Of a stretch of DNA of 64,000 nucleotides, positions 379 to 19,205 are shown piece after piece. Source of the stretch: a virus. Under the pieces are notes generated by a model that searched no databases, was not told where the DNA came from, and was given only the letters and a program-made list of their open reading frames with translations. The position numbers and the translations under genes are program-made. Location of the stretch: the IMG/VR virus record IMGVR_UViG_3300029258_005088, one strand, 5' to 3'. Numbering within the stretch: the stretch's first letter is position 1; each line of letters opens with the position of its first letter.

Positions 379-2211
379 CTACAATCTCGATGGGTCCATT
401 AGCTTCGGAATCATCGATGTCTGCTCGTGCTTGCTGCTGGAGCCATGCCGAACTGCCTCCAACATCGAGCGCTTGACACCGAACCCGGCCAGACGCACTT
501 TCCAGTCCGGGTCCTCCGCAGGAATCCCCATCGCTCTTGTGACGTGAGGTTCGAATGCGGGCTCTCGTTTGTTTGCAACGATAGTCTCCACACCTTCATT
601 AGCAAGAAACTTAGCCACCTTGGGAGTGATTTTCGTTCCTATGCTATAGTGTAAAACTGGTTTCTCGAGATACTGGCCGACGCCTCTCTTCGGATTCATC
701 GAAGCCGATCCTTGACGGGGTTCGTAGTTTCTCTGGAGGGTTCCGTAAGGAACCACGTCCCCTATGACGTACCCCTGCAGGCCGTCGGGATCCGTTACCT
801 TTACCCTGTCGAAGAAAGCCCTGGAAAGGACCTCGACGTTCCGTCTGTGGGTCGGTACGGAGTTCTTCTTGAGTAACTCGTAGAACTTGTTCTGGAAATA
901 CATGCGTCCCTCGCCCAAGCCCTTGTACTTGGCTATCTCCGCTGGGTTTGGCGTGCCCGAGGTAAGTACGTCTCCGGCATCGACTTCCTGGCCGGGGCTT
1001 ACCTGTATCTTTCTGCCCTCCGGTACGTGAAGCTGCTGATCGTCGACGAACATGTAATGGCCGCCCTGCGGTGCTTTGACTATCTGGCGCACCTTCCCGG
1101 ACTTGGGAGCGAGTACGGCGGCGCCTCGGAACATCTTGGGCACCTGCACGAATTGATTGATCTCGTCGAATCCCTCGACGTTGTCGGAGTTGACGCCCAC
1201 GACTCCTCCGGTATGTTTGGCCGACAGAGCCATGCCCTGGGTCATCGGCTCCGATACCACGCGTCCCACCTCGATGCCTATCTGGGTGCCTATCGCCGGG
1301 AACGTTCCCTTCTCCCGCTTTCCAGAACATTTCTGGCAGACGCCTTCTTCCTGCTGGCACGTCAACAAGCTGCGTACAAGTGGCTTCTTCCCCCTCAGTT
1401 TCGGCAGGTGCCTCTTGTCGATAACCGTCCCCGCCGGTATGCCGTTCACGGTGCGGGAAAGGACGGCTCCGAGGATCTCGGGGTCGTCCCCGTCCACGAG
1501 TATTCCGACGTCATCGGCTCCACAGTCTTCTCCCATCACTCGGACGTGCTGGGACATGGCGGTTAGCTGCTTTCCCAGGAAGCCTGTCTTGGCGGTTGCG
1601 AACTGGACGTCGGCATATCCCTTTCTCGAGGCATAGGATCCGGCCCAGTATTCGGCGGGGGTGACGCCCTCTCCGTAACCATGCAGTCCGGGAATCGGAA
1701 CTGGACGACCCTTGTGGTCTGCGACCAGCATGTCGCCGAACATAAGCTGTATGACCTGCGTCGGGGATCCGCGAAAGCCCTGGGACAGTGCAAGCCCGTA
1801 GGCGTTGTCCCTGCCTTCGAGCTCTTTCATCAGCATGCTCTGGATGGTGGGCATCGCCTTCTTCATGGTGTCTACGATGCGCTTCTGCTTGGTATCCGCG
1901 GACATGCTGGGATTCTGTGCTATCTCCCGTATCCTGCCGCGCAGCTCCTTCCTATAGGCCTTGGTTCTCGGAGGCAGCTCTAGATCTTCCAGACGAAGGC
2001 TGGCGGGGCCCCCGTATTCGGTTCCGGCCACTCTGCTTACGTTGTTGAGGTTCTGCAGAACGTCGACGTACTTTTCGGGATGCTTGTCGGCGAGCTCCTG
2101 AAAGAACTGGGAACTGGACTTCATGTTGAATACTCGATCGCGATCCCGCATATCATCCGGGATCGCTCTCTCGACTAAAAGTCGTCCTATTGTCGTCGCG
2201 TTCTGTGGCAT
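379..2211 (-). CDS. rpoC: DNA-directed RNA polymerase beta' subunit, C-terminal half (bridge helix, Zn site, trigger loop)
   Basis: [12 protein letters not shown] ~ GARGSxxQxRQL; [22 protein letters not shown] ~ [37 protein letters not shown] ~ VRSxxxC..GVCxxCYG; [17 protein letters not shown] ~ GEPGTQLTMRTFHxGG. Confidence 0.93.
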   Translation of the reverse strand: [610 protein letters not shown]

Positions 2212-5173: not shown

Positions 5174-7222
5174 TCACAGCACTCCCTTGGTCGCTCTCTG
5201 CAGAGATATTCGTTTTCCGCTCTCGAAGAGGGGCTTGACCTTGTCCAGCCTGGTCCCTGTCTGGCGGGCATACTGGCTGTTTCTGAAAGATTGTCTGAGG
5301 CGCTCGGCGTTTTCCGCCGTGGGATTGACCATGAGAGCGTTCACGGCGTTATGGCCCTGTTGGAACTCCTTGAGATTGTCTCCCAGTGCATAGGCATGGA
5401 TCTTGAGCCAGTTCTGCATCATGGGGTTGAGTTTGCGCCAGTTCGGGTTCCAGGCATCGAGCTGTGTCGGGACGATTTTCTCGAGGTGGTGCTTGGTCGC
5501 CGCCCAATCCTCTTTGGTCTTGATGGTGCCTTTGCCGCTGCGGAGCTGTTTGAATCTGTTGTTCCCCCAGATCTTGGAAAGCTTGGAGGTGTTGGCCGGA
5601 CTCATGTAATGCCCGGTACCGATCGTGGGATAAGGCTCCTTGACGCCTTCGGCATTGGTGACGTGCTTGGCGGTAGGGCTGAAACCCTCGGCCTTGCTGA
5701 GCCACGGGTGTATGGCTTCATGGGCCTTGTCTCCGGCAGTCTTGGACGCCATTCTCGTAGAAGGATCTTTATTTACGAGCCCCAGGAAATCTTCTGCCAT
5801 ATCCCATAATAAGGCTTCCCATTCTTTACCCTTCCCTTCCCTCTCCATTATGCTGCGCAATGCCCGTAGATCAAAAGAATCATCAACCATAGGCTTCAGT
5901 TCACGTTTTATCTTTCTGTCCGGAGACGTCGCCCACTGGAGAAATGCAAAGGCTTTCTTCTTATCGCTGACGTCTACTCCCATGTGACTTGCGAGTGCCT
6001 TGAGATTACCTAATCTTGCTTCTCTTTCTATCTGCCGCATGGTGTAGGGAGCGGTGTGTCTCTTACTTCGAGCCTCTATGAACTTTCCTTTTTCATCCGT
6101 ATCCTGCACCATCTCGCTCATCTTATCGTGAGCCCACGTGTCCGCACTAAGGTGTCTCTTGTTTCTAGCCGCATTCTCCCTTACGACATCTTGTGCCGTT
6201 CCCTTTCCTTCGCCCTTAAGCGGGTACCATTTTCTGGCATGCTGAAGTACGTGTCGATACTCATGAGGAAGGAGTCGAGCCGTATGAGGCCTTATCCAAA
6301 TATCTGGGATGCGTTTACCAGGAGAGTATATGAACCCTCCTCCGCTTTTGTCGGGAGCGTCCTCATTTCTAAGAATCTTGTACGGAAAAGGCCTGTCCAA
6401 TGCCTTGTCATCCAGCCTCATGGCAAACCTATTCTTATACCCTTCTTTCTTCCTATACTCTCTGGCCTGCTCAAGGGACTTCTTGAAGGCTTCTGGACTA
6501 GGATACGTACTGCTTATTACTCTCCTAGGCGTATCCACTCCTGAGACAATAGGCTTTACGACAGGGACGGCTTTCTTAGAAATTTCTTTACTAGCATCTG
6601 CAGGTACCTCTCCCTTGTCTCCGGCAGTCTTCGCTATGATCTTGCCGTCCTTCAGCTCGTAAGGAGCCCATACCTGGCCTTCTACATAGTTGCCCGTCAG
6701 CCTGGGCAGCATGTCGAGCTTGCCTGCTTTCCTAAGCTCCACCAAGGTCATCAGCGTCTTGACCTCCTCACTGAGATTGCTCTTGTTGTGTCGCTCTCTA
6801 CGGAGATAATCGAAGGAGTCGCCGGGCGAAAACGTGGAAGCCTGCAGAAGCTCTTCGTCTATAGGATATACCTGGGTCGACTTGATATCGTGACCCCATG
6901 CCTTCTTCTGCTTGTCGGTACGGAAATACAAAGGATGCTTCAACTGTACCTTGTCGCCGAGTTTCTTGACGGCCTCCTCTCGTAGCGCCTTTTCAAGTCG
7001 AACACGGTCCTGCTTGTACCGATCGGTGTTCTTGTCTGGGGTATGCTCTTTATACCACTGCAGAACCTGCTCCTGCTCCTCTGGAGGCATATCGAGGAAA
7101 TTTCCGGGAAGCTTGCCTCCACGACCATAGTGATATCCCTCGACCTTGGCAGTCTTGTCCATATACCCGTCGAGATATCCCGAGGATCCAGACAACAGAA
7201 CTGCTGTGGTTACCGACATCAT
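5174..7222 (-). CDS. Polyvalent protein: unknown domain + HExxH metallopeptidase + lysozyme-like domain
   Basis: 682 aa; LLPHEYRHVLQH zincin motif; C-terminal KAEGFSPTA...PTIGTGHY resembles the GH24 lysozyme EG...TIGxGH signature; domains separated by KTAGD. Confidence 0.7.
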   Translation of the reverse strand: MMSVTTAVLLSGSSGYLDGYMDKTAKVEGYHYGRGGKLPGNFLDMPPEEQEQVLQWYKEHTPDKNTDRYKQDRVRLEKALREEAVKKLGDKVQLKHPLYFRTDKQKKAWGHDIKSTQVYPIDEELLQASTFSPGDSFDYLRRERHNKSNLSEEVKTLMTLVELRKAGKLDMLPRLTGNYVEGQVWAPYELKDGKIIAKTAGDKGEVPADASKEISKKAVPVVKPIVSGVDTPRRVISSTYPSPEAFKKSLEQAREYRKKEGYKNRFAMRLDDKALDRPFPYKILRNEDAPDKSGGGFIYSPGKRIPDIWIRPHTARLLPHEYRHVLQHARKWYPLKGEGKGTAQDVVRENAARNKRHLSADTWAHDKMSEMVQDTDEKGKFIEARSKRHTAPYTMRQIEREARLGNLKALASHMGVDVSDKKKAFAFLQWATSPDRKIKRELKPMVDDSFDLRALRSIMEREGKGKEWEALLWDMAEDFLGLVNKDPSTRMASKTAGDKAHEAIHPWLSKAEGFSPTAKHVTNAEGVKEPYPTIGTGHYMSPANTSKLSKIWGNNRFKQLRSGKGTIKTKEDWAATKHHLEKIVPTQLDAWNPNWRKLNPMMQNWLKIHAYALGDNLKEFQQGHNAVNALMVNPTAENAERLRQSFRNSQYARQTGTRLDKVKPLFESGKRISLQRATKGVL
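5725..5743. repeat. 19-bp direct repeat copy 1 (ccttgtctccggcagtctt; encodes KTAGDK on the minus strand)
   Basis: Exact match to 6613-6631. Confidence 0.9.
6613..6631. repeat. 19-bp direct repeat copy 2
   Basis: Exact match to 5725-5743; the pair brackets the metallopeptidase domain. Confidence 0.9.
7148..7222. repeat. 75-bp repeat copy 1 (encodes MMSVTTAVLLSGSSGYLDGYMDKTA)
   Basis: 70/75 identical to 8206-8280 by manual alignment. Confidence 0.9.
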
Positions 7223-8280
7223 ACCTTCCCTTTGTGTTTGCCGGGCTGCTGGTCCCTAGCCATAAGACTGCCCTCATCGATGAGGTCCTGCATCAGCTCA
7301 CGTTCCTCTGGCGCCAGGGCCTTGAGAGCCTTCTCTGCGTCCATGGTCTCACGCAGCTTGTCGTACTTCTTGATGAGTGGGTAGATCTTCTTGTAGTACT
7401 CGTCGTAGAACTTGAGGTAGCCGGCGTCATCTTCCTTGGCCTTGGACCTGCCGTACTCGTTGTCGCTGTATCCGTAGTTCCGCGCACGCTGGGCCTTGAG
7501 AAATTCGGCTGTGCGTGCAACCTGCGAAGCATTGAACTGCCCGGTACGCGTCTTTGCCTTGGCCGCATCCGTCTGGCGCTTTATGGAACTCTGTAGGTGG
7601 TCTGCTTTCGGAGCGTAGGGCATCATGCCCATGCTTATGAAGGTGCCTTCCCCACCCCGCATATTCTCTCGTCTGGTTTCTTCATGCTTCCTATCCGCAC
7701 CCTCGAAGGTGTTCGGATACTTGCGCAGTGCCGCACGCATCTTGGCATCGTTGAGCCTCCGATTAGCACTTCTGATGGCGGCCTCGGTTTCATACCTTTT
7801 GCCTGCTATTCCAGTGTGTATCGTCTTGGGGAACGTCTTGGGGTCCGGCAGTGCCGCACGCTCGGCTTCCAGCATCTTCAATCTCCTGGCATCGATCCGC
7901 CTCCCATGCGCACCTTGCTCCCTATTGGTCCACTCTATCATCTTTCGGAGACGTGCCTGATCTGCAGGGTTCTTCGCAGCCTTGAGCTGCTTCTCGTAGT
8001 CCTGGCGTATCTTATCGTAGCCCTGGTAATCCTTCTCCATGCCCTGCAACTGTTGATGAGTAACATTCTTTGGCTTTTCCGCCTTGATTGGCTTCGTCTT
8101 GGATGTAGTTGTCTGCGGAACCTTGATCTTACCGTAGTTCTTGGAGACTCCGCCTTCGACGGGCAGTGCTGCATGCTTGTTCAGCTCGCTCACGAATCTC
8201 ACGCCGGCAGTCTTGTCCATGTACCCGTCGAGATATCCCGAGGATCCAGACGACAAAAATGCTGTGGTCACCGACATCAT
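7219..8280 (-). CDS. Hypothetical basic, helical virion-type protein
   Basis: ORF 7219-8319; the start is placed at 8280 because the N-terminal 25 codons duplicate those of the next gene. Carries the GYLDGYMDKTA motif. Confidence 0.7.
   Translation of the reverse strand: MMSVTTAFLSSGSSGYLDGYMDKTAGVRFVSELNKHAALPVEGGVSKNYGKIKVPQTTTSKTKPIKAEKPKNVTHQQLQGMEKDYQGYDKIRQDYEKQLKAAKNPADQARLRKMIEWTNREQGAHGRRIDARRLKMLEAERAALPDPKTFPKTIHTGIAGKRYETEAAIRSANRRLNDAKMRAALRKYPNTFEGADRKHEETRRENMRGGEGTFISMGMMPYAPKADHLQSSIKRQTDAAKAKTRTGQFNASQVARTAEFLKAQRARNYGYSDNEYGRSKAKEDDAGYLKFYDEYYKKIYPLIKKYDKLRETMDAEKALKALAPEERELMQDLIDEGSLMARDQQPGKHKGKV
8206..8280. repeat. 75-bp repeat copy 2 (encodes MMSVTTAFLSSGSSGYLDGYMDKTA)
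   Basis: 70/75 identical to 7148-7222. Confidence 0.9.
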
Positions 8281-9887
8281 GCCTTCCCCATAAACTCCAG
8301 TGTTTTCTGAACCAGCCAAGACCGTCCGGAGGCTTCCTTCTTCATAGACGAGCCTTCTTCTTCGGGAGCTCCGTCCATTTCCTCGACCTCTTCCTCGCCT
8401 TCTTCGCGGAAGTCCTCATCGGTTGGATCCAGCTCCTCGAGCAGAGCTTCCAACTCCCCGACGTGTACCTTCTCCTCGTCGGCTATATCCTGAAGAATCT
8501 GTGCGGCACGCCTGTTCTCGGTGCTGTCGGCCACTGTTTCGTAGTGCTTGATCGCCTTCTGCTCTTCTATGATGGCGTCTCGAACGGCACGAGTCAGTTC
8601 ACGACGACCCAGCCTGGGAAGCTCCTTGACGTTCTCCATGCTACTCGCAGTCTTGGCTATATGTCTCGTCTCGAAAAGCACCTTGATCAGTGCCGCCCGT
8701 TTCTCCTGGCTTATCATAGGTGCCTCCAATTCTGAATACGCGTATTCACTTTTGCCTTCCTTACCTTCCATCTTCTCGAGGTCTGTGTAATAATCAGGCA
8801 TTTCTGTAAGATGATCCAACGCGATTTCTTCTGCAAGCTTCTGGTCTCTTGTATGTTCCTTTTCGACCTTCTTCCCCTTCTTGAGCTCTTCTTTGTCGAC
8901 ATCCTTCGGAGTTACGTTTTCTTTGTCGGCAAGGCCCGTAGTATCGGATCCGACTTTCTGCAGGGGCTTCAACACTTTCGAGGTATCCCCACGGGCGACC
9001 CACTTCTTGAACTGGTCCATGGTAAGTGCGGTGATGGAGCCGAGACCGTCCCAGCCTTTCTCGTAGTTGTCTAGATATCCCTTGCGGGCATCCTTCTCGT
9101 TGGTGAAGCCCAGCATGCACTTGTGCTCGTCGAAGCCTTTGCCTCCTTTGTTCGTCTGGTTGACGACGAACACCATCTCAGAGTCTACGTCCGGTCCGAT
9201 GAAGACGTCTACGTGATCGCCGTCGGCGTCGGACTTAGTCCGCTTGATGTAGCCGTAGTGATGCTTCATCAGGGTCTTCCATTCCGTACCGTCCGGGGAT
9301 TTGCCTTTACGATACTGGCCCTTTAGATTCTCGATGGTGATGTCCATACCATGCAGGCGGGTATGACCCTTGCGATAATTACCTGCTTCGGCCTGTTCCT
9401 TGGACTTCGGCTGAACCGGCGTGCCCTTGATCTTTAGGGAAGCTTCTTTTTCACCCGGCTCCTGCGAAGGGGCTCCATATATCTCGGCCAGTTGTAGCTT
9501 TCTCACCTCCTCGTTACTTAGATAGTTGCCCTCGTCATCGATGGGATGATATAAGTCCTCTCCGCTATTCAACTGCTCGGTCTCGAACTCGGTCAGATAA
9601 CCACGCCTCATTTCCCACAATTTCTTTTCTAGGTACTTACCCAGTGCGTCCTCTTCTTCCGTACCTCCTGTGCCATAAGACGAAGGTATCGCCGCATTTA
9701 TTTTTGTATACAGCCTCAGTCTTTGTCCTGGAGTGAGTTCTTCCCAGTGTGCTTCTTCCAGCTCATTCTGGGCTATTCCTGGTACTGTCTGTGTGGCTCC
9801 TTCGTCTACCACAGCGTCTCGGGCCTCCTTCTGCTGCTTCGCCTCCTTCCACGAAAGGATCATATTCGTAAAATCTGTTCTAGTCAT
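8277..9887 (-). CDS. Polyvalent protein: inorganic pyrophosphatase-type domain + DUF5661-like domain + ferritin/rubrerythrin-like domain
   Basis: GNYRKGH..LHGMDITIEN..HHYGYIKRT..DGDHVDVF..DEHKCMLGF (PPase domain of phage polyvalent proteins); EKEHT..AEEIALDHL..PDYY; EEQKAIKHY...DEEKVHVGEL di-iron ExxH. Start at 9887 chosen for the GAGG/AGGA RBS (ORF track start 9953). Confidence 0.8.
   Translation of the reverse strand: MTRTDFTNMILSWKEAKQQKEARDAVVDEGATQTVPGIAQNELEEAHWEELTPGQRLRLYTKINAAIPSSYGTGGTEEEDALGKYLEKKLWEMRRGYLTEFETEQLNSGEDLYHPIDDEGNYLSNEEVRKLQLAEIYGAPSQEPGEKEASLKIKGTPVQPKSKEQAEAGNYRKGHTRLHGMDITIENLKGQYRKGKSPDGTEWKTLMKHHYGYIKRTKSDADGDHVDVFIGPDVDSEMVFVVNQTNKGGKGFDEHKCMLGFTNEKDARKGYLDNYEKGWDGLGSITALTMDQFKKWVARGDTSKVLKPLQKVGSDTTGLADKENVTPKDVDKEELKKGKKVEKEHTRDQKLAEEIALDHLTEMPDYYTDLEKMEGKEGKSEYAYSELEAPMISQEKRAALIKVLFETRHIAKTASSMENVKELPRLGRRELTRAVRDAIIEEQKAIKHYETVADSTENRRAAQILQDIADEEKVHVGELEALLEELDPTDEDFREEGEEEVEEMDGAPEEEGSSMKKEASGRSWLVQKTLEFMGKA
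8733..8748. promoter_or_regulatory. Perfect 16-bp palindrome TGAATACGCGTATTCA (intragenic copy)
   Basis: Identical to the copies at 28400 and 51199. Confidence 0.55.
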
Positions 9888-12800
9888 TCGTATTCCTCTC
9901 TGACCTATGCGTGTAACCGTCCATATACCCGTGCGAGGCGTATTTCTGTCCACTAGGAAGTGATCGGTTGTCCACTACCAAAGGAAGCTCCTCTGAAAGC
10001 ATGTCAATGAACTTAATCTTCTTATCCGGAGTCAGTGTGTCGTAGTATTCAAGGAACTGCCTGGCACCGTGCTTATAAGGACGGTCTCCTTCGAAGAACT
10101 CCGTCAGTGCCTTTTTCGCCTCTGCCTTATTCCTGGCTCTACCTCCCTTGTTGTACCACCACGCTTTGATATCTCCTAGCCGTACCTCTCTCTCCTTATC
10201 GTCGATGAGGAAATATGCTACGTCGGACTGGCGGTCACTCCATTTGCTATCTACTATGAGTTTTCCATCGGCGTCTTTAACCCGCTCTTTCGTCTTGGGG
10301 TCCGTTTTAAATACGGTCCTTGTCGGGGTCATGTCAGGTTCGAACTCTTTCATATAGGCCATACTTCTCTTGAGTATATCCGGATGCCTTGCGTGTCCTA
10401 GGTTTTTGTTCAAACCAACCGTCTGATAAAAGCGAGGGTATTGTTTGTCCCCTACCTCGGGTATCTGGAAATTATGCCTGCTCTCGTGGATTATGGAATG
10501 ACCTAGGTCGGACACGTCTTTCTTTCCTCTAGCTCCTACGGTCATAGTAGGATGAACGCTCTCTACAGGACCGCTTTTCAAACCGCCCCCCTCCGGATAC
10601 ACGAAATCACTTTTGGTTCCTGCATTATGCTGGGCTCCGTACCACATCTTAGGGTCGAACTTCATCGGAATATACCTTTGAGGAAATCTAGTGGGCATGT
10701 CGATGCGCTCGACCCGCATGTTCGGAACCATGCCCGTGGCCTTCTGGTAGGCCAAGGCATCCTGAACGGACTTGTCTAGATTGCTGGGCTCTCCTGGCTT
10801 GTACACGCCTTGGTGATACCATCCACCGTACTGGTGGTGAAGAGGGAAGTACGTATCTACCTTTCCCTTGTTTTTACCCTTGTCCTCGCCCTTCCAGCCC
10901 CATTCGGCCATCTCCCAGGCTTTTTTATTTCTCTCGGCCCTTGCATTGAACTCCTTCTGCTTGGCTGCCTGAGCCGCCATCATCTGCTTCTTGATGGCCT
11001 CTATCTGCTTCTGATACGCACCTATCCTGTCTTGGTATCCCTTACCCATGTATTTCATCTGGTACTTATCCGTGGCAGGTGCCTTGGTGTCTACGTCAAC
11101 GGTCTTGACGGGAGGAGTTAATACAGGGTTGTTCACGGCCTTCTTGGCAGGTGTCTTGGAAGCTTGTTCGGCAATCGAAGGAACAGCGGGAGCCGCTCCG
11201 GAACTAGCCTCCTTCTGCTGTTTCTTCTTCTGACGTTCTTGCCATTCCTCGTACTTCTTCGGATTGTCCTTGAAGTACTGCAGCATATCGCCGCATGCAA
11301 CTTTCTGGACCTTGCCCGGAGGTCTTATCATCAGAGGGTACGGTCTATTGCGTTCCTCGTCCATAGGCATGATCCCGGACTTCTCGTCACCGGGAAGGAA
11401 CCCGTGCTTCCTGTAAAGGGATATCAGAGCTGCCAGACGGGCTTCGTATTCCTCGTCGTCGAAGTTCTCGTGCTCCTGCAGGTTCTCGTCCAGCTCGAAC
11501 GGCCCGGCTCTGAGAGCCAGGGTCTTCTTCTTGTTGTCTTTGACGATCTGTTTCAAAAGCTTGTCGGCAAAGCCCTTTCCTCGAAAATGAGGATCCGTGT
11601 GGATGTCTCCGACCACGCTGTAGTCGCCGTTGTCCTTCACGGTTGCATAGGATGCATCCACTCCCTTGTCGGTTACGAAATACTCCTTGACCGGTCCGTC
11701 CCCGTGAGTGGATACCTTGGCCTTCTTCTGCATGTCGCCACAGGCCACTTTCTCGTTGTCTATGAGATCCCAGGCGTCGTCCTTGGACATACCTTTCTCC
11801 TGAAGATCCCACGCTCTACGTATCCTGTCCTTTGCAGCGGAAGTCTTCACAGAGATGTCTACGTCCGGACTCGCCGCTGTAGCCGTATGCTCTCCCTCGT
11901 CTCTCTCCTTGAACCGAAACTCTTCGGATTCCGACAACTTCCTAAGTAGACGTACCAGACGAGCCCGCTTCTTGGGATCGTCCTCGAAGATGTGATAGTC
12001 CCAGTCCCTTCCTTCCGGATGAGGTCTTCCGTAAAAATCAGCTCTTCCCCTAGAGCCCGTCAGTTCTGCCTTACGGATCAGACGCTTCTTGAGGTCTGCC
12101 TTCTTCTGCATATTACCCGTATTCTTGTAGACCTTCTTCGCTATGTCATCCCAGATCTCTCTGCAGTGCTGGTCCTTGATGCACGTGATCTGCAGCTCCA
12201 TGCCCAGATGCTCTCTGCACCACTTCTTGATGGCGCGTCGGGCCACGCCGTCGTTGTCTCCGGCCACTCGAGCGGTGAATATCTTGATCTTCTTGCCCCG
12301 GCCGATATAACGCTTCACGCGGTCGACCATCTTCTGGATGGGCGCTCCGATGACGTCCGGACCCTTCCAGCCGTCGTATTTGGCCAGAGTACCGTCGAGA
12401 TCCACGCCGATCCACTCCTCGTCGGAAGCCTCCTTGTCCATCCCCAGAGGATCTCCGTAGTCCATCGTAAGCTCGGTATCTTCCGGAATGTCCCGCAATG
12501 CCTTGAAATAGCAACCATCGGGAGCGGGGTCGAATACGACGTTTGGATCCGATGCGTGGTTGGTGTAGCGTGCTCCGATCGTGCGATGCAGCTCCCTGTC
12601 CAGTGCGAGTGCGAACGACTCTCCCCGTTTTACGGGCTTGGTGACGAACGCGCCTTTTCCCTCTATGTCGGAATCCCTTATCTCTATGGGATCCTCGTCT
12701 GGCTGGGGAATGAGGTCGTCTGCATACTCCGAGTTTTGCCTATGCTCTTCCGCACTCGTTCCGCTCTCCTGCAGGTAGGTCTCGAAATCTGAACCCGTCT

Positions 12801-13026
12801 TCTGGAACAGAGGCGTTGCGACCTCTCTAGGAAGATGGAAGCGGAAACCGCTGGGACGATGGGTGACTCCGACGACGTCCCTCTCCCTGGAATCGATCTC
12901 GAAATCGCCGGGGTTCTTTCGTATGAGATCCGTTGCCAGCCTATGCTTCTCGGTATAGTTCCGTCTGTCCGACTCCTTCTTCAAAAGGAGAAGCGACTGT
13001 ATAAGCTGTCCTCGTCTTTGGTTCAT
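9880..13026 (-). CDS. Polyvalent protein: SET methyltransferase + HAD phosphatase + nucleotidyltransferase-like + GNAT acetyltransferase + HExxH metallopeptidase
   Basis: 1048 aa. SET: EGKGAF..RYTNHASDPN..ELTMDYG. HAD: GVDLDGTL..FTAR..IWDD. NTase: LTGSR..DWDY. GNAT: DPHFRGKGFADKLL..LYRKHGF. Peptidase: IIHESRHNFQ. Confidence 0.85.
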   Translation of the reverse strand: MNQRRGQLIQSLLLLKKESDRRNYTEKHRLATDLIRKNPGDFEIDSRERDVVGVTHRPSGFRFHLPREVATPLFQKTGSDFETYLQESGTSAEEHRQNSEYADDLIPQPDEDPIEIRDSDIEGKGAFVTKPVKRGESFALALDRELHRTIGARYTNHASDPNVVFDPAPDGCYFKALRDIPEDTELTMDYGDPLGMDKEASDEEWIGVDLDGTLAKYDGWKGPDVIGAPIQKMVDRVKRYIGRGKKIKIFTARVAGDNDGVARRAIKKWCREHLGMELQITCIKDQHCREIWDDIAKKVYKNTGNMQKKADLKKRLIRKAELTGSRGRADFYGRPHPEGRDWDYHIFEDDPKKRARLVRLLRKLSESEEFRFKERDEGEHTATAASPDVDISVKTSAAKDRIRRAWDLQEKGMSKDDAWDLIDNEKVACGDMQKKAKVSTHGDGPVKEYFVTDKGVDASYATVKDNGDYSVVGDIHTDPHFRGKGFADKLLKQIVKDNKKKTLALRAGPFELDENLQEHENFDDEEYEARLAALISLYRKHGFLPGDEKSGIMPMDEERNRPYPLMIRPPGKVQKVACGDMLQYFKDNPKKYEEWQERQKKKQQKEASSGAAPAVPSIAEQASKTPAKKAVNNPVLTPPVKTVDVDTKAPATDKYQMKYMGKGYQDRIGAYQKQIEAIKKQMMAAQAAKQKEFNARAERNKKAWEMAEWGWKGEDKGKNKGKVDTYFPLHHQYGGWYHQGVYKPGEPSNLDKSVQDALAYQKATGMVPNMRVERIDMPTRFPQRYIPMKFDPKMWYGAQHNAGTKSDFVYPEGGGLKSGPVESVHPTMTVGARGKKDVSDLGHSIIHESRHNFQIPEVGDKQYPRFYQTVGLNKNLGHARHPDILKRSMAYMKEFEPDMTPTRTVFKTDPKTKERVKDADGKLIVDSKWSDRQSDVAYFLIDDKEREVRLGDIKAWWYNKGGRARNKAEAKKALTEFFEGDRPYKHGARQFLEYYDTLTPDKKIKFIDMLSEELPLVVDNRSLPSGQKYASHGYMDGYTHRSERNTND

Positions 13027-13730
13027 TTCTTCGCACGTTCCGCCATCTTGGCAAGAGCCTCTTTCTTCTTTTTCTCCTCGTCCGCCTCTCCGGAGGCGAG
13101 TGCGAGTTCCTTTTTCTGCAGCTCGAGTTCCTTCTTCTGCAGAGCTTCCATGGCCTTGAGCCTGTTCTGGATCTTCTTCCGTTCGATGACGGTCATTATC
13201 GTGAGAACGAGGGGAAGGCCTATGGCAACTCCTCCCGCTGCGTAGGCATATGGCTTGATCTGGTTCCAGGTGTCCTGTCCCGCCGATGTTATGCCTCTGT
13301 TGATCTGTCCCTGGATATCCAAGTCGGAGTTTGTCTTATCGACTATCTCCTGAACTTTATCCCGGGCGCGGTTGAGACTGGCGTCCACTAGCTCTCGAGA
13401 ACGCCTATCAGCCAAGTCATAGCTCTTGTTTGTCTGCTCTCTCACTCTTTCCGCAGCGGCGTCGATTATGTCTTCATACTCCCTTTTATACAGTCTTCCT
13501 GTCTCTTCAGCCGTGCGGGCAAGCTCGTCTCGCCACTCTCGTCCCTGGTCTCGCCTGGTACGGCCCACTAGACCTTCCACGCCTTTGGAGACTGCCCAGC
13601 CAGGACCTTCCGTGACAACGGTCTTCGCCACGTTCCATGGCGAGAACTTCTCCTTGAGACTTTCATACAAGCGATCACCGAACCCGGATTCCTTGTGCAT
13701 GTAGCCAGCTATGTATGCTTCGTTGTTCAT
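13023..13730 (-). CDS. Membrane-anchored coiled-coil protein
   Basis: 235 aa; MNNEAYIAGYMHKES start; TM segment AYAAGGVAIGLPLVLTIMTVI. Confidence 0.7.
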   Translation of the reverse strand: MNNEAYIAGYMHKESGFGDRLYESLKEKFSPWNVAKTVVTEGPGWAVSKGVEGLVGRTRRDQGREWRDELARTAEETGRLYKREYEDIIDAAAERVREQTNKSYDLADRRSRELVDASLNRARDKVQEIVDKTNSDLDIQGQINRGITSAGQDTWNQIKPYAYAAGGVAIGLPLVLTIMTVIERKKIQNRLKAMEALQKKELELQKKELALASGEADEEKKKKEALAKMAERAKK

Positions 13731-14798: not shown

Positions 14799-17700
14799 CT
14801 AATCCTCGACTACTCTTATGGGGTCGTCTATCGTTATCTCGCCTCTGCTGAACGCCATCATGGCCTCCTGCATCGACTTGAATATCCTGGTCTGCCCTTT
14901 CTTCGGCGGCTTCGTCGCGAAGTACAGGCCCTGAAGATACTCGTTCGACGGGGTATAAGCGGGCTTGCCGAATCTGGACGAGATCAGATTCTTCTCTGGC
15001 ATCATCAGCTCATTCGCCTGGTCCACTGCCTTCTGTGATACCGGTACAGTAAAACTAGCAGTATCGCCATCGAAATCCATAGCGAACGGACCAACTATGG
15101 TAGGACTTACCTGAATGGTCTTGCCCTTTGTGAGGACCGGCGTGAACGCCATGTTCGAGTACTTGTGCAGCGTAGGCGCTCTGTTGACCAATACAGGACG
15201 CTTCTTGATGACGGATTGCAAGGCTTTGTACGCCGGAGGGCTCTTGGCTTCCACGGCCTTTGCAGCCTGTGTCGCCGGATATCCCTTGCCTACCATCTCC
15301 CTTACCACGAAATCGCCGTATAGATTCCATGCCAGCTTCTCGGGCATGCCTATCTGGTTAAGCTTCAAGGAGGGGTTTGGAGCTACGACGCCCAGACCGG
15401 ACACGTCTATGTTGGTTCCTATGACGCGGCGCTGAACGAAGCCGAACTTGGGAGATCCCTTGCCGAAGATCTGCTTGAGCATACCGCCTACGTTCTTCTG
15501 CTGGAGCTGTTCCTGGTCCGGATCGGTCATGCCCACCAGAGTGTTGTAGGACTTCCACACGTTTCCCCATGCCTCGGACCGGATGTCCTTGGGCATGCCG
15601 TCGGTATCCTTGTAGTCCTGTATGTTCTCCAGAAGGGTCTTGTAGAGATAGTTCGGATCGGCAACCATCGTCATGTCGCTCTGTCTGGATATCGGGCGGA
15701 ACCTCGGAGGCAGTACGGGGACGCGGGTCATCAGGAAGTCTTCCGGCTTGACGTCGTGTTTCTCCATGGCGTCGATATACCGGAACAACTTCACGGCGTC
15801 GTCTCTCTTGGACTTGGCTCCGTGCTTGATCTGCTCCAGAGTGCGCTGCTTCAACGAAGGCATGTTCACCCTGCTCAGCATGTAGGACAACGCCTCGGAT
15901 CCACTCCTGCCCTCCACCTCGGTGTTTCCGGCGACCATGTCGTCGAATTCCTTCTGCTTCATGCCGAGTATGCGTCGGAGGGGTTCGGACATGATGGGGT
16001 TCGGCATCGGAGCCGGGAGCTTGATGTAAGACCACTTGTCTCCGTTGCCCATGCTCCCCGTGGCCTCTGGATCGAACAGGCCGCCGGGTATGGGTCGGAG
16101 GTTCTTGGCGTCGTAGGTCGACGGGTTCTTGATCTCACGGGCACCGGTCAGTGCCTCCGCCTGATTGTTGGTCATGGCGAATACGCTGTCCTTGTCCTTG
16201 TCCTCGTGCAGGTTGATGCCGGCCGCTCGTATAAGGCTCTTGAACTTCTGATAGACCAATGGAGTATCGGGCTGCGTCGGAGTCTCGCCCAGCTTGAGCT
16301 GTCTCCAGAAATTGCTGTTCTTCTGTCCCTTGATGATCTTGAGATCCTTGAGAACCTGGTCGGCGCCATGGGCCTGCAGAGCCTGTATCTCCATATCTCC
16401 GAGATGCTTGGCTCCTTCCTTTCCGCCGCGTGCCGGTTGATCCTCCGCGGTATACCTGGAAGTGCCTCTGGACTTGCCCTTTCCTTCCGCGGTATGCTGG
16501 AGCTTGTAGACGTAGGTCATGCCGGTCAGAATGCCCGGTATGGTCTTGCCCGTCTTCGGATCGTACAGATCTTCGTTGGCCTTGACGTTGTTCTTGTACG
16601 CCTCTCGGGCGGCGAACTTCTTCATGTCCTCGTCCAGGAACCCCGGCAGCACGTACGGCTTTCCGGTCTTTTCCGCTACCTTGCCCAGAACCACTTCCGA
16701 TTTCTGCGCTGGGTTGGTACGGCTGTGGATGCCGAGTGGCGAGAATATGACGTCGATCGGCCGTCCCTTGGAATCCCTAGGCATGTCTTCGTCCCTGATT
16801 ACCTCGGCGACCACGCCTTTGTTGCCGAAGCGCCCGGAAAGCTTGTCGCCCTCTTCCATGGGGACGTTGGCCCTGACGTTGATGTTGTAGCCTTTCTTGC
16901 TGGGCTCGGCATCGGTGACCACGGCCGGGAACTCGTGCTTCCATACGACGCTGTCGTCCGTACGGGTCTTGCGTCCCATCGACTGGGGCGTGGGCTCTCG
17001 CTCTTTCACGGCCAATACCATGGGATCGCCGTAGTTCACCACGGTACCGGTCTTCACGACCCCGTCGTCTCCTATGGTGCCGAGCTGGGACTTGCTGAAT
17101 CTGGATGGGTACAGGGCCTGGAACTTGGCTTTGTCCGTGAACACGTCTTTGTCCTTCTCGAACTTTGTCGTGTACATGTGCTCTGACGTCAGCTTTTCCT
17201 TTGCGGCGGACTGGGATATGACGACGGCGTCCTCGAACACCTTTCCGTCGTAGTTCAGATAGGCCACGCGAAGGTTCGTTCCCAGTGCGGATACGCCATC
17301 CGGATCCGTATAGTTCGAAGTCGCAAGTACTGCGCCTTTTCCCACCTTCTGGCCAGCCTTTACCTTGGGAGTGTTCCTGATGAAGGTCTTGCGGGCATAC
17401 GGGTGGTTGTCGTAAAGGTCTATGGTCTCTTCCGTTCCGTCGTCGTAGGACATCTTGAGGTGATCCTTGTAGACCGCCTTGACGACGCCCGGTTTGGAAG
17501 CTTTCACCGCGCCCATGTAAACGCCCATGCGCTCCTCCTCGGAACCTCCCTTGGGATTGGAAGTCCTTACGAGAGGGGCCTGACGACCAACCAGAGGAAG
17601 TGCCTGTCTGGCGAACTTGTTCCCCATCAGCAGGCGCATGCCTTTGACGCCCGACTTCAACGGAACCAGGTTGGCGGTATCCGAGAACATCTCGTCGCCG

Positions 17701-19205
17701 TCGGGAAGCAGGTAGTCCAGGTCTTTCTTGTGGACGTACTTCATGTCGCGTCCCTTGGACAGAGTCGGTACGTACGAGTCTCCGGGCTCCGACGATCCGG
17801 GCATGCCTATGTTGGCTTCCGTGGCGTCTCTCACGCCCACCCATTCCTTCTTGCCGGTCTTCGCATTGATGAGCTGGGTGTAAAGCTGCCTGTCGGGACC
17901 GCGTCTGACGTTTCTGGCCAGGCGCATGTCGAGACCTATGCGGAGCGACTCCGGGGCCACCACGGGATCGATGTAGCCGAGGTACGACGGTTGTACGTTT
18001 CTGGACTCCTTCGGCGCGGAGTCTATGCTGGGAAGGGCACCCTCTCCGAGGCGGCTGACTCGAACGTTCTGGTCGTAGATGTCGGAGGGATTGATCTCTT
18101 CGATTGCCTGAGCCACTCCCGTGGCAGTGAACAGATGGCTGACGTGCGCGTCCAGAAGGGAAGGCGGTATCTTCTTCATGTCCTGACCGCGGCCGGTAAG
18201 CTTCCACAGAACCTTGCGCAGGGCGCCGCCCTGATCGTTCTTGATCTTCTCCGCCAGGAAATCGGAGACGTCGTATATGTCCTGGTACGCAAGGCTGTCG
18301 CGGCTATCTGTATCGGCTTTGCCTTTGCCAACGTTCAGTATCTTGGTCGTAGCCGCCATGATGGCTTCCGGAGTGGCGTTCATGTACTCGGTTCCCAGCG
18401 TCCGCCGAGTTACCCTGGGACTGAGCTCGGTCCTCGAGAACTCGCCTATGACGTTGGCCTGGAATTCCGGATCGTAATCGGTCTCGGAAGCCTGCTTGTC
18501 CATGTTCTTGAACCCGACTGCCTTGATGAGTTCCTCTCTGGCCTCGTCCCTCTGGGGACGGAACTGCTTCAGGAAATTGACTGCGTAGGGGCTGTTCTGC
18601 AGAGCTTTGTTCTTCTCCGCGAGCTCCTTGCCCCACGTCTTCTCTATGCGTTCGTGAGGAATGCCCATGGCTCTGAGCACGGGGTACATCGGAACCTTGC
18701 GTCCCTTGTAGCGCATGAAGAAATGCCCGCTGCCCGGTTCCATGTATACTCTGAAGCTCGATCCGGTACGGGGTTTGGCATTGAACTGGGCCTCGATGTT
18801 TCCGTCGTCGGTAACCCTGGTGTATACACCGGGCACGAGACGAAACTGCTTCGCTATGGTGTATTCGACGCCCTTGCGGATGTAGGTCCCTCTGTCCGTA
18901 AGGTGAGGGACGTTCATCAGGCGCTTCTGGTTCGTCCTTCCTACTACGGTGCCCGTGGCGTTGTCCACGAGCTCGTAATTACCGACGAGCTTGTCCGATA
19001 GGGATTGTCCGGCCAGTATGGCCTTCTTCTGATCCTTGAGGGAGAAGCTGTCCTTGCCGGAGAACTTTGGATTTACCACGCGCAGAGTGAACTGCTCGTT
19101 AACTGCCGGGGGCGACTCCTGAACCGCTTTCAGGACTTTGTCCCGGAGGTCCTGGCGAACCCTGGGATAGTCCGTATAATCGAGAAGTTGTTGTTCGTTC
19201 ATCAC
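14799..19205 (-). CDS. rpoB: DNA-directed RNA polymerase beta subunit fused to the N-terminal (catalytic) half of beta'
   Basis: 1468 aa. beta motifs: PHLTDRGTYIRKGVEY, RLLMGNKFARQALPL, FEDAVVIS, GDKLSGRFGNKGVV, YVYKLQH, LGDMEIQAL. beta' motifs: GGLFD, PVLPPRFRP, NRAPTLHK, FAMDFDGDT (metal-binding DFDGD). Confidence 0.95.
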   Translation of the reverse strand: MMNEQQLLDYTDYPRVRQDLRDKVLKAVQESPPAVNEQFTLRVVNPKFSGKDSFSLKDQKKAILAGQSLSDKLVGNYELVDNATGTVVGRTNQKRLMNVPHLTDRGTYIRKGVEYTIAKQFRLVPGVYTRVTDDGNIEAQFNAKPRTGSSFRVYMEPGSGHFFMRYKGRKVPMYPVLRAMGIPHERIEKTWGKELAEKNKALQNSPYAVNFLKQFRPQRDEAREELIKAVGFKNMDKQASETDYDPEFQANVIGEFSRTELSPRVTRRTLGTEYMNATPEAIMAATTKILNVGKGKADTDSRDSLAYQDIYDVSDFLAEKIKNDQGGALRKVLWKLTGRGQDMKKIPPSLLDAHVSHLFTATGVAQAIEEINPSDIYDQNVRVSRLGEGALPSIDSAPKESRNVQPSYLGYIDPVVAPESLRIGLDMRLARNVRRGPDRQLYTQLINAKTGKKEWVGVRDATEANIGMPGSSEPGDSYVPTLSKGRDMKYVHKKDLDYLLPDGDEMFSDTANLVPLKSGVKGMRLLMGNKFARQALPLVGRQAPLVRTSNPKGGSEEERMGVYMGAVKASKPGVVKAVYKDHLKMSYDDGTEETIDLYDNHPYARKTFIRNTPKVKAGQKVGKGAVLATSNYTDPDGVSALGTNLRVAYLNYDGKVFEDAVVISQSAAKEKLTSEHMYTTKFEKDKDVFTDKAKFQALYPSRFSKSQLGTIGDDGVVKTGTVVNYGDPMVLAVKEREPTPQSMGRKTRTDDSVVWKHEFPAVVTDAEPSKKGYNINVRANVPMEEGDKLSGRFGNKGVVAEVIRDEDMPRDSKGRPIDVIFSPLGIHSRTNPAQKSEVVLGKVAEKTGKPYVLPGFLDEDMKKFAAREAYKNNVKANEDLYDPKTGKTIPGILTGMTYVYKLQHTAEGKGKSRGTSRYTAEDQPARGGKEGAKHLGDMEIQALQAHGADQVLKDLKIIKGQKNSNFWRQLKLGETPTQPDTPLVYQKFKSLIRAAGINLHEDKDKDSVFAMTNNQAEALTGAREIKNPSTYDAKNLRPIPGGLFDPEATGSMGNGDKWSYIKLPAPMPNPIMSEPLRRILGMKQKEFDDMVAGNTEVEGRSGSEALSYMLSRVNMPSLKQRTLEQIKHGAKSKRDDAVKLFRYIDAMEKHDVKPEDFLMTRVPVLPPRFRPISRQSDMTMVADPNYLYKTLLENIQDYKDTDGMPKDIRSEAWGNVWKSYNTLVGMTDPDQEQLQQKNVGGMLKQIFGKGSPKFGFVQRRVIGTNIDVSGLGVVAPNPSLKLNQIGMPEKLAWNLYGDFVVREMVGKGYPATQAAKAVEAKSPPAYKALQSVIKKRPVLVNRAPTLHKYSNMAFTPVLTKGKTIQVSPTIVGPFAMDFDGDTASFTVPVSQKAVDQANELMMPEKNLISSRFGKPAYTPSNEYLQGLYFATKPPKKGQTRIFKSMQEAMMAFSRGEITIDDPIRVVED

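What the first reader, a model, noticed from the sequence alone, without database searches (positions are those of the whole stretch)
9880..13026. Five-enzyme polyvalent protein including a SET lysine methyltransferase
Seen: SET (aa ~114-191), HAD phosphatase, Pol-beta-type NTase motif (GS..DxD), GNAT and HExxH peptidase in one chain. Established: phage polyvalent proteins combine such domains and are thought to be injected early; SET domains are unusual in phages. Inference: a kit for methylating, acetylating, nucleotidylating, dephosphorylating and cleaving host (defence or transcription) proteins right after entry.
Basis: partly seen in the sequence, partly recalled or inferred. Interest (0 to 1): 0.75.

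Follow-up and report, generated by a model that had tools for sequence, protein, structure and literature searches.

The report
Tagged multi-enzyme phage cargo polyprotein
An uncultured ~200-kb phage encodes a 1048-residue chain of small enzymes, including a rare SET lysine methyltransferase. It carries this phage's head-cargo tag and has probable head-protease cutting sites at the module joints, so it is most likely packed into the capsid, cut into separate enzymes and delivered with the DNA.

Summary
The ORF (9880-13026, minus strand, 1048 aa) is real and is found letter for letter on 8 contigs from separate assemblies.

Of the five claimed enzymes:
- SET is solid: it passes Pfam's cut-off and keeps the GxG, NHxxxPN and ELxxDY motifs.
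- HAD is solid: all four catalytic motifs are invariant across 50 relatives. Its nearest solved relative is the 3'-phosphatase domain of T4 polynucleotide kinase, which points to nucleic-acid or nucleotide substrates.
- GNAT is probable: it scores just under Pfam's cut-off and has the acetyl-CoA motif.
- HExxH is a plausible zincin: HExRHxxQ and ERExRLG are invariant in three diverged paralogues, but no fold or family match was obtained.
- The Pol-beta NTase is unsupported. The loose motif appears in 75% of shuffles, and no profile or fold hit was found.

The polyvalent-protein reading holds. Relatives shuffle the same modules, and the gene lies in a block bracketed by split RNA-polymerase genes whose orthologues are virion proteins in phage Arash.

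Earlier notes of this scan on the same genome proposed a GYxDGYxxKxA tag and a K-x-A protease motif. I tested both. P0001 carries the tag at its C-terminus, and K-x-A sits at its module junctions. The protein is therefore probably a capsid-targeted polyprotein. No cleavage, packaging or enzyme activity has been measured.

The parts
9880..13026 (-). Whole ORF P0001, 1048 aa plus stop
   Evidence: exact protein on 8 contigs
12772..12993 (-). N-module, aa 12-85, unknown function; a mobile module shared with P0002, P0003, P0006, P0007 and P0009, followed by K76-T-G (K-x-A in the relatives)
   Evidence: no PDB or Pfam match
12445..12687 (-). Minimal SET lysine-methyltransferase domain, aa 114-194
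   Evidence: Pfam PF00856 above cut-off; phrog_34170; motifs
12427..12435 (-). K198-E-A200, junction SET|HAD (GMDKEA|SDEEW)
12097..12426 (-). Capless HAD phosphatase, aa 201-310, ending in K308-K-A310
11728..12096 (-). Module X, aa 311-433, the claimed Pol-beta NTase; no relatives and fold undetermined
11719..11727 (-). K434-K-A436, junction X|GNAT (GDMQKKA|KVST)
11305..11718 (-). GNAT acetyltransferase-like domain, aa 437-574
11206..11304 (-). Conserved ~30-aa peptide, aa 575-607 (KVA-CGDMLQYFKDNPKKYEEW...QQKEA), bounded by K-x-A on both sides
10843..11205 (-). Linker and helical stretch, aa 608-728, with K628-K-A630 and a degenerate tag-like GYQDRIGAYQKQIEA at aa 662-677
   Evidence: sequence reading
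9967..10842 (-). C-domain, aa 729-1020, HExRH family (putative zincin)
10465..10488 (-). H847-E-S-R-H-N-F-Q854, invariant HExRHxxQ
10174..10194 (-). E945-R-E-V-R-L-G951, invariant ERExRLG (candidate third metal ligand)
9898..9945 (-). K1028-Y-A1030 followed by the C-terminal tag G1033YMDGYTHRSE1043
8277..9887 (-). Downstream neighbour, 536 aa: InPase + DUF5661 + rubrerythrin. In the close relative L007 it is fused with the P0001-like N-terminal modules in one protein
5174..7222 (-). 682-aa paralogue of the C-domain, with an N-terminal tag GYLDGYMDKTA
14799..19205 (-). Fused RNAP beta + beta' N-part, 1468 aa, bounding the block upstream
379..2211 (-). RNAP beta' C-part, bounding the block downstream

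Best explanation
P0001 is a phage polyvalent protein built as a string of small modules: N-module, SET lysine methyltransferase, capless HAD phosphatase of the polynucleotide-kinase-phosphatase type, unknown module X, GNAT acyltransferase, a conserved 30-residue peptide, and a putative HExRH zincin domain. It is made late, together with the virion RNA polymerase and other proteins that carry the GYxDGYxxKxA tag, and is directed into the prohead. The head maturation protease then probably cuts it at the K-x-A sites at the module joints, which also removes the C-terminal tag. The resulting 8-45 kDa pieces would leave the capsid with the DNA and act at the start of the next infection. Shown: the domain identities above, the module shuffling, the shared tag, and the position of K-x-A at the junctions. 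Inferred: packaging, cleavage, ejection and all substrates.
For: Domains. Module shuffling: P0002 (N-module, HAD, GNAT, InPase, rubrerythrin), P0003, P0009 (with MazG), and P0004/P0005 (SET-HAD with LigD and ligase modules). Context: all genes are co-directional; the block is bounded by the fused RNAP beta/beta'N gene and the beta'C gene, and the same synteny holds in L001, L007 and near L008. In Arash, the nearest cultured relative, the orthologous RNAP Gp206 and Gp216 are among the most-detected virion proteins by mass spectrometry (PMC10585845). Tag: 8 full matches in the window against 0 in 200 shuffles. N-terminal tags are followed by K-x-A, and both C-terminal tags (P0001 and a 77-aa protein) are preceded by K-x-A. 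Related phages use the same tag, and so does the stand-alone C-domain relative P0008. K-x-A: 10 lie outside independently defined modules against 4.9 expected, and 3 lie inside against 3.7 expected. K-x-A sits 7-8 residues before the HAD core in 4 of 4 proteins of this clade, whatever module precedes it, and in 0 of 12 embedded HADs from other lineages. Cutting there gives the N-terminus that stand-alone HADs have. Three head-module proteins next to the block have K-x-A z-scores of 4.3-5.3, with a recurrent KEA|S as at the SET|HAD joint. The linkers (G-x-M-x-K-x-A) resemble the tag's end (GYMxKxA).
Against: There is no proteomic or biochemical evidence for packaging, cleavage or any activity. 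K-x-A enrichment in P0001 as a whole is modest (13 against 8.3 expected, P 0.056), and linkers are Lys/Ala-rich. The four clade members are related, so the 4/4 count is not four independent events. The N-module/SET joint has K-T-G, not K-x-A. The tag in P0001 is a variant (R and E in place of K and A). The protease gene is identified only weakly (phrog_18299, E 3.4e-4; no PDB hit). The RNAP subunits themselves carry no tag. The Arash virion preparation listed 116 proteins, and its authors note possible carry-over.
Confidence: 0.5

Rival explanations
1. P0001 is packaged and ejected as one intact 118-kDa polyvalent protein. The K-x-A triplets at the joints reflect only Lys/Ala-rich linker composition, and only the terminal tag, if anything, is removed.
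For: Some polyvalent proteins are transferred uncut (N4 vRNAP, ArdC and TraC1, as reviewed in PMC5512222). Whole-protein K-x-A enrichment is marginal.
Against: A composition-aware expectation outside modules is 4.9 against 10 observed. The K-x-A before HAD is fixed in position in 4 of 4 clade members and absent in 12 other lineages. The linkers mimic the tag's end.
Confidence: 0.2
2. The protein processes itself. The C-terminal HExRH zincin cuts the chain at the junctions, in the capsid or after entry, as proposed for MPTase domains of polyvalent proteins.
For: The MPTase model of PMC5512222. HExRHxxQ and ERExRLG are invariant in three paralogues. Atlas leads to LPD23 and SprT-like clusters, and a weak DUF6782 hit on P0008.
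Against: Close relatives P0002, P0003 and P0009 keep the K-x-A joints and tags but have no HExRH domain in the same protein or in the fetched flanks. Head scaffold-like proteins are the most K-x-A-rich, which fits a head protease. No zincin fold or family match was obtained.
Confidence: 0.12
3. It is not cargo. It is a late cytoplasmic multi-enzyme protein that modifies the phage's own virion proteins, RNAP or nucleic acids during assembly (methylation, acetylation, end-healing), and the shared tag is an assembly-site or chaperone signal.
For: The gene lies in a late-type structural operon. HAD partners in other phages are repair-type modules.
Against: The tag logic (a removable peptide at either end, bounded by K-x-A) matches capsid-targeting propeptides. 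InPase-type neighbours match PHROGs annotated as minor head or virion proteins.
Confidence: 0.1

Closest known systems
Phage-type polyvalent proteins (Iyer, Burroughs, Anand, de Souza, Aravind 2017, PMC5512222)
   Same: Several unrelated small enzyme domains in one phage polypeptide, strong domain shuffling between relatives, GNAT and a putative HExxH peptidase module, and an InPase-bearing neighbour that is a fusion partner in relatives.
   Different: SET and HAD are not mentioned in that paper's text. No Pfam MPTase-type or LPD model matches. The joints carry the phage's own propeptide-type K-x-A motif and a portable GY tag, which suggests processing by the head protease, not by a built-in peptidase.
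T4 internal proteins and Alt, with their capsid-targeting sequence cut by prohead protease gp21 (own knowledge; role of propeptides noted in PMC10052503)
   Same: A short removable peptide ending at the protease site on unrelated cargo proteins, one of them an enzyme that modifies host proteins after ejection.
   Different: Here the tag can sit at either end or internally, the site is K-x-A and not L/I-x-E, and the cargo is a multi-enzyme chain with sites between modules.
Ejection proteins and virion RNAP of phiKZ-like giant phages such as SPN3US (PMC10052503, PMC7411985)
   Same: A multisubunit RNAP and many ejection proteins are packed in the head, and the head protease makes multiple cuts in head proteins.
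   Different: The phage lineage is different: the fused beta/beta'N RNAP is Arash-like. In SPN3US all mapped cuts but one (the protease's own C-terminal propeptide) remove N-terminal propeptides and do not separate enzyme modules.
Minimal viral and bacterial SET methyltransferases (PBCV-1 vSET type; own knowledge)
   Same: A small SET core with the GxG, NHxxxPN and ELxxDY motifs. One weak phage hit is annotated after PBCV-1 vSET.
   Different: It is embedded in a polyprotein, has a very short insert region and no post-SET segment, and its substrate is unknown.
T4 polynucleotide kinase 3'-phosphatase domain (PDB 5uj0, 1ltq)
   Same: Best solved match of the HAD profile (E 0.025 and 0.08). The Pfam HAD_PNKP and PHROG 'polynucleotide kinase' hints agree.
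   Different: The match is weak. There is no kinase domain, and the family is a ~115-aa capless stand-alone or fused module with more than 1000 metagenomic relatives.

Membership tests
Polyvalent proteins (PMC5512222) | Two or more unrelated effector-type domains in one polypeptide of a phage or conjugative element | tested here: met
   SET, HAD and GNAT in one ORF of a ~201-kb phage contig
Polyvalent proteins (PMC5512222) | The same domains recombined in different architectures in related elements | tested here: met
   P0002 to P0009 architectures
Polyvalent proteins (PMC5512222) | Delivered with the DNA (packaged in the virion) | not testable with these tools
   Indirect evidence only: the shared tag, the structural block, and virion RNAP orthologues in Arash
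SET domain (PF00856) | Profile score above Pfam's gathering cut-off | tested here: met
   34.2 bits against 22.4, E 3.5e-8
SET domain (PF00856) | GxG, NHxxxPN and ELxxDY motifs with the catalytic Tyr | tested here: met
   G123KG125, N156HASDPN162, E185LTMDY190
SET domain (PF00856) | Lysine methyltransferase activity | not testable with these tools
   Needs an enzyme assay
HAD superfamily phosphatase | Four catalytic motifs (DxDxT, S/T, K, DD) | tested here: met
   D209, D211, T213, T251, K284 and D293/D294 are invariant in 50 sequences
HAD superfamily phosphatase | Curated profile score above cut-off | tested here: not met
   HAD_PNKP 13.8 bits against 27.6; TIGR01662 13.4 bits against 44.6. 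PHROG 1238 and 415 match at E 7e-6 and 2e-5
GNAT acetyltransferase | Profile score above Pfam's cut-off | tested here: not met
   Acetyltransf_7 scores 25.9 bits against 27, a near miss, and five more GNAT models hit the same stretch
GNAT acetyltransferase | Acetyl-CoA motif A, R/Q-x-x-G-x-G/A | tested here: met
   R482GKGFA487, conserved in P0002; weak PDB acetyltransferase hits at this motif
Pol-beta-fold nucleotidyltransferase | hG[GS] ... DxD motif plus a third carboxylate | tested here: inconclusive
   G324S, D341WD343 and D388VD are present, but the loose motif arises in 75% of shuffles. A stricter pattern defined after the fact arises in 0.5%
Pol-beta-fold nucleotidyltransferase | Profile or fold similarity to known NTases | tested here: inconclusive
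   No Pfam, NCBIfam, PADLOC or PDB hit. The model has pLDDT 53, and Foldseek and VIA list no NTase. The Atlas gives NTP_transf_2 clusters only at 0.83
Zincin metallopeptidase | Conserved HExxH on a helix | tested here: met
   HExRHxxQ is invariant in 3 paralogues and lies in a predicted helix of very low confidence
Zincin metallopeptidase | Third ligand on a following helix, and the zincin fold | tested here: inconclusive
   The invariant ERExRLG at the start of a helix with pLDDT 65-84 is a candidate. The model overall has pLDDT 43.5 and gives no fold match. No Pfam family matches P0001; P0008 hits DUF6782 weakly at E 0.045
Prohead-protease substrates with a capsid-targeting propeptide (T4 type) | A short shared terminal peptide bounded by a shared cleavage-type motif on unrelated proteins | tested here: met
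   8 full tags against 0 in shuffles. K-x-A follows N-terminal tags and precedes C-terminal tags
Prohead-protease substrates with a capsid-targeting propeptide (T4 type) | Cleavage by an identified head maturation protease | not testable with these tools
   The candidate L005:16499-17950 has only phrog_18299 at E 3.4e-4. Its homologue in Arash is a virion 'structural protein'

The most novel reading that the evidence does not exclude
This phage clade uses a plug-and-play cargo system. A portable GYxDGYxxKxA address works at either end of a protein, and K-x-A head-protease sites sit at every module joint, so any small enzyme gene can be spliced into a polyprotein, packed, cut free in the capsid and injected. 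P0001 would then be the first virion-delivered SET lysine methyltransferase of a phage, delivered together with a nucleic-acid-end phosphatase, an acyltransferase and a new HExRH metalloenzyme family.
Probability: 0.3. Interest if true: 0.75.

Novelty: new variant of a known kind. Interest (0 to 1): 0.55.

Why it matters
Polyvalent proteins are thought to be first-strike toolkits of phages, but how their domains are separated and loaded is largely conjecture. This locus gives a concrete, testable rule: a short address tag plus a three-residue cutting motif at every joint, tied to the head protease. It also adds SET lysine methylation, and a PNK-type phosphatase with over a thousand metagenomic relatives, to the list of activities a phage may deliver. 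If the rule holds, it would help predict ejected proteins in uncultured jumbo phages, and it could serve as a way to load foreign proteins into capsids in laboratory phage systems.

Tried and rejected
- **Genome access.** Megablast of the gene against 50,697 phage records found no match. IMG/VR holds no relative. No whole genome or contig handle is held. A look-up of the 610-aa beta'C ORF failed because the gene call is 581 aa.
- **Module X as an NTase.**
  - Sequence: the word-indexed search found no relatives. Pfam at E up to 10, NCBIfam and PADLOC gave nothing. phmmer against PDB gave only noise. The Atlas gave NTP_transf_2 clusters at 0.83, below the lead threshold.
  - Fold: the single-sequence AF2 model has pLDDT 53.4. 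Foldseek's best E is 0.05, to de novo designs and Rpb11. VIA-wide's best Z is 6.0, at background level, with no NTase among the 50 rows.
- **C-domain.**
  - Sequence: the exhaustive search of 1.84 billion representatives found only P0008. The A1 profile against PDB gave nothing relevant.
  - Fold: AF2 with 3 sequences gave pLDDT 43.5, with the HExxH helix at about 23. Foldseek gave E of 1.5 or worse.
  - Leads only: Atlas LPD23 0.89, LPD1 0.83 and SprT-like 0.83; DUF6782 at E 0.045 on P0008.
  - From memory, HExxHxxQ recalls the DUF4157 zincin signature. This was not tested and no Pfam hit supports it.
- **N-module.** The profile against PDB found nothing.
- **Protease candidate.** phmmer against PDB found no hit.
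- **Expression.** No RNA holder is listed among public runs.
- **Not spent.** Limits come from homology breakpoints and profiles.
Full report
**1. The observation**

The minus-strand ORF at 9880-13026 encodes 1048 residues (P0001). The identical protein is on 8 contigs from ENA, JGI and Logan assemblies, the longest 201,176 bp. Public runs of sediment and seawater metagenomes from three studies hold the stretch in full. It is therefore a real gene of a recurrent, uncultured, roughly 200-kb phage. No cultured phage has similar DNA, and IMG/VR holds no relative.

**2. The five claimed domains**

- **SET (supported).** Pfam PF00856 matches aa 139-191 at E 3.5e-8, 34.2 bits against a cut-off of 22.4, and phrog_34170 covers aa 79-194. 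The sequence shows G123KG125, N156HASDPN162 and E185LTMDY190, the AdoMet and catalytic-Tyr motifs of SET enzymes. It is a minimal SET of about 80 residues. Among 50,697 phage records, only 7 records (5 distinct phages) match it, weakly (E 5e-5 to 4e-2). The annotated ones are single hypothetical genes, and one is labelled after PBCV-1 vSET. SET is rare in phages but has precedent.
- **HAD (supported, with a different likely substrate).**
  - Domain evidence: PHROGs 1238 and 415 hit aa 199-276, and more than 1000 shorter proteins match, mostly ~115-aa stand-alone forms with no Pfam family. In a 50-sequence alignment, D209, D211, T213, T251, K284 and D293/D294 (HAD motifs I-IV) are invariant.
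  - Nearest relatives: the profile's only PDB matches are the T4 polynucleotide kinase phosphatase domain (5uj0 at E 0.025, 1ltq at E 0.08). This agrees with sub-threshold HAD_PNKP and HAD-IIIA hits.
  - Fusion partners elsewhere are MazG, NUDIX, InPase, LigD_N, ligase OB and 2H phosphoesterase. A nucleotide or nucleic-acid-end phosphatase is more likely than a protein phosphatase.
- **GNAT (probable).** Acetyltransf_7 scores 25.9 bits against a cut-off of 27, and five further GNAT models hit the same stretch. The motif R482GKGFA487 is conserved in P0002. There are weak PDB acetyltransferase hits at that motif.
- **Pol-beta NTase (not supported).**
  - Sequence: aa 311-433 has no relatives and no Pfam, NCBIfam, PADLOC or PDB signal.
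  - Motif: the loose GS..DxD pattern occurs in 75% of shuffles of this protein. A stricter pattern that I defined after the fact occurs in 0.5%.
  - Fold: the single-sequence model has pLDDT 53. Foldseek (best E 0.05) and VIA (best Z 6.0, at background) list no NTase.
  - The claim is neither supported nor excluded. I put it at about one in four.
- **HExxH (plausible zincin, fold unverified).**
  - Rarity: the C-terminal 449 residues have a single relative among 1.84 billion representatives, P0008 (383 aa, 27% identity).
  - Conservation: a second, weaker paralogue lies in the window at 5174-7222. All three share invariant HExRHxxQ and, 60-100 residues later, ERExRLG. A lone HExxH arises in 5.5% of shuffles, so the conservation is what gives it weight.
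  - Fold: the model is poor (pLDDT 43.5, with the motif helix at about 23) and fold searches are empty. Only weak leads point to metallopeptidase-like or polyvalent-associated families.

**3. Modular build and relatives**

Homology breakpoints give this map:

| Residues | Module |
|---|---|
| 12-85 | N-module |
| 114-194 | SET |
| 201-310 | HAD |
| 311-433 | X |
| 437-574 | GNAT |
| 575-607 | conserved peptide |
| 608-728 | linker |
| 729-1020 | C-domain |
| 1033-1043 | tag |

Relatives recombine these modules:

- P0002, from a close relative with 63-81% identical neighbours, has the N-module, HAD, GNAT, an SH3-like piece, the peptide, InPase and rubrerythrin in one chain.
- P0003 has the N-module, HAD, a MazG-like part, InPase, DUF5661 and rubrerythrin.
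- P0009 has the N-module, an SH3-like piece, HAD, MazG and the peptide.
- P0004 and P0005, from another ~206-kb phage, carry SET-HAD at 38-40% identity with LigD_N, ligase OB, acylphosphatase or GNAT modules. Their SET-like part has diverged (NYQPKGN).

This shuffling is the hallmark of the polyvalent proteins described in PMC5512222. That paper's text mentions neither SET nor HAD domains, and it lists Pol-beta NTase only for conjugative elements.

**4. Context**

All genes in the block run on the minus strand. The block is bounded upstream by a fused RNAP beta plus beta' N-part (14799-19205) and downstream by the beta' C-part (379-2211). The next gene after P0001 carries InPase, DUF5661 and rubrerythrin, and matches PHROGs annotated as minor head protein, virion structural protein and DarB-like. 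The same order is seen in L001 and L007, and P0005 lies 4 kb from an intein-bearing fused RNAP gene.

Head-module genes follow just beyond the window start. One of them has a weak head-maturation-protease hit. The nearest cultured relatives are Salmonella phage Arash and Vibrio phages D69, D148 and D181. In Arash, virion mass spectrometry found the fused RNAP Gp206 to be the most-detected protein, with Gp216 among the top five. The authors caution about possible carry-over (PMC10585845).

**5. Tag and K-x-A**

Earlier notes of this scan on the same genome proposed a GYxDGYxxKxA capsid-targeting tag and a K-x-A protease motif. I tested both.

- **Tag.**
  - Frequency: the full tag occurs 8 times in the window and never in 200 shuffles.
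  - Position: it sits within about 30 residues of the N-terminus of six proteins of the 3.9-25 kb block (a seventh, at 13023-13730, has a K-E-S variant), internally in one, and at the C-terminus of a 77-aa protein. P0001 has the variant GYMDGYTHRSE 16 residues from its end.
  - Boundaries: N-terminal tags end in K-x-A. Both C-terminal tags are preceded by K-x-A (QKYA-SH-GYMDGY and SKKA-SVFDQ-GYMDGY).
  - Spread: related phages use the same tag. P0008, the stand-alone C-domain relative, begins with AYISGYMSKEA.
- **K-x-A inside P0001.**
  - Positions: it lies at 198, 308, 426/434, 575, 605, 628 and 1028, which are the joints. Ten lie outside independently defined modules against 4.9 expected from local composition, and three lie inside against 3.7.
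  - Resemblance to the tag: the joints read GMDKEA, GNMQKKA and GDMQKKA, like the tag's GYMxKxA.
- **Before the HAD core.**
  - Clade pattern: all four proteins of this clade have K-x-A at -7/-8, although the preceding module differs. None of 12 embedded HADs from other lineages does.
  - Product: cutting after the Ala leaves 4-5 residues before the core, where stand-alone HADs begin.
  - Downstream: three of the four also have K-x-A 4-6 residues after the HAD end.
- **Head-module proteins.** Three have K-x-A z-scores of 4.3-5.3, with the same KEA|S.

**6. Mechanism proposed**

P0001 is made late and directed to the prohead. The address is the GY tag and possibly the conserved N-module or the ACGDM peptide. 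It is cut at K-x-A by the head protease into the N-module, SET, HAD, X, GNAT, small peptides and the C-domain, and these are ejected with the DNA alongside the virion RNAP. The closest precedents are the T4 internal proteins and Alt, with their capsid-targeting sequence (own knowledge), and the processed ejection proteins and packaged RNAP of SPN3US and phiKZ-like phages (PMC10052503).

Substrates are guesses. SET and GNAT may act on host nucleoid or transcription proteins, or on co-packaged phage proteins. HAD may act on 3'-phosphate ends or nucleotide signals.

**7. Rivals**

- Intact delivery without cutting.
- Self-processing by the HExRH domain, following the MPTase model of PMC5512222. 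Against this, close relatives keep the tags and joints without that domain in the fetched DNA.
- A non-packaged, assembly-time modifier.

None of these is excluded.

**8. Verdict**

The polyvalent protein is real. The tag and the joint motif turn the locus into a testable polyprotein-cargo model. This is a new variant of a known kind, and all functional steps are still inferred.

Noticed in passing
window 5174-7222 (-): A 682-aa protein with the N-terminal tag GYLDGYMDKTA is a diverged paralogue of P0001's C-domain, sharing invariant HExRHxxQ and ERExRLG. With P0008 it defines a small HExRH family that has no match above noise in Pfam.
   Followed up: partly
window 11206-11304 (-), P0001 aa 575-607: A ~30-residue peptide (ACGDMLQYFKDNPKKYEEW...QQKEA) is 64-72% identical in P0002 and P0009, where it forms the C-terminus. 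In P0001 and P0002 it is bounded by K-x-A on both sides. It is too conserved for a plain linker and may be a second targeting or binding element.
   Followed up: no
L007:10001-13219, L001:8340-10001, P0009 aa ~95-140: A small module (GDILLGGRFKN...VKEIGTDDLGQPT...GRKLLSYR) recurs in the polyvalent proteins of related phages but is absent from P0001. No family was assigned.
   Followed up: no
window 14799-19205 versus L001:759-7265, L007:2148-7448, L008:17405-23012: The fused RNAP beta/beta'N gene is 1468 aa here, 1766 aa in L007, 2168 aa in L001 (faint LAGLIDADG hit) and over 2800 aa in L008 (intein and homing-endonuclease hits). This suggests intein-type insertions in L001 and L008; L007's extra length was not examined.
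   Followed up: no
window 11728-12096 (-), module X: The low-confidence model of X drew several background-level matches to the alpha-like assembly subunits of multisubunit RNAPs (Rpb11 chains in Foldseek; archaeal subunit L, E. coli alpha and an ASFV RNAP subunit in VIA, Z 5-6). This is intriguing next to RNAP genes that have no known alpha, but it is not distinguishable from chance.
   Followed up: partly
window 10996-11043 (-), P0001 aa 662-677: GYQDRIGAYQKQIEA resembles a degenerate GYQDGYMNKRA tag just ahead of the C-domain, as if a once stand-alone tagged HExRH protein had been fused onto the chain.
   Followed up: no
window 8277-9887 and 9880-13026 versus L007:10001-13219: The P0001 gene and the InPase gene overlap by 8 bases here, while in the close relative L007 their shared modules form one 1072-aa protein. 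This is a recent gene fusion or fission at that boundary, with SET, X and the C-domain present only here.
   Followed up: partly
L005:11809-19675 (just beyond window start): Head-module proteins of 715, 529, 413 and 146 aa are strongly enriched in K-x-A (z 3.2-5.3). The 483-aa candidate protease has homologues in Arash (a virion 'structural protein') and in Vibrio phages D69, D148 and D181.
   Followed up: partly
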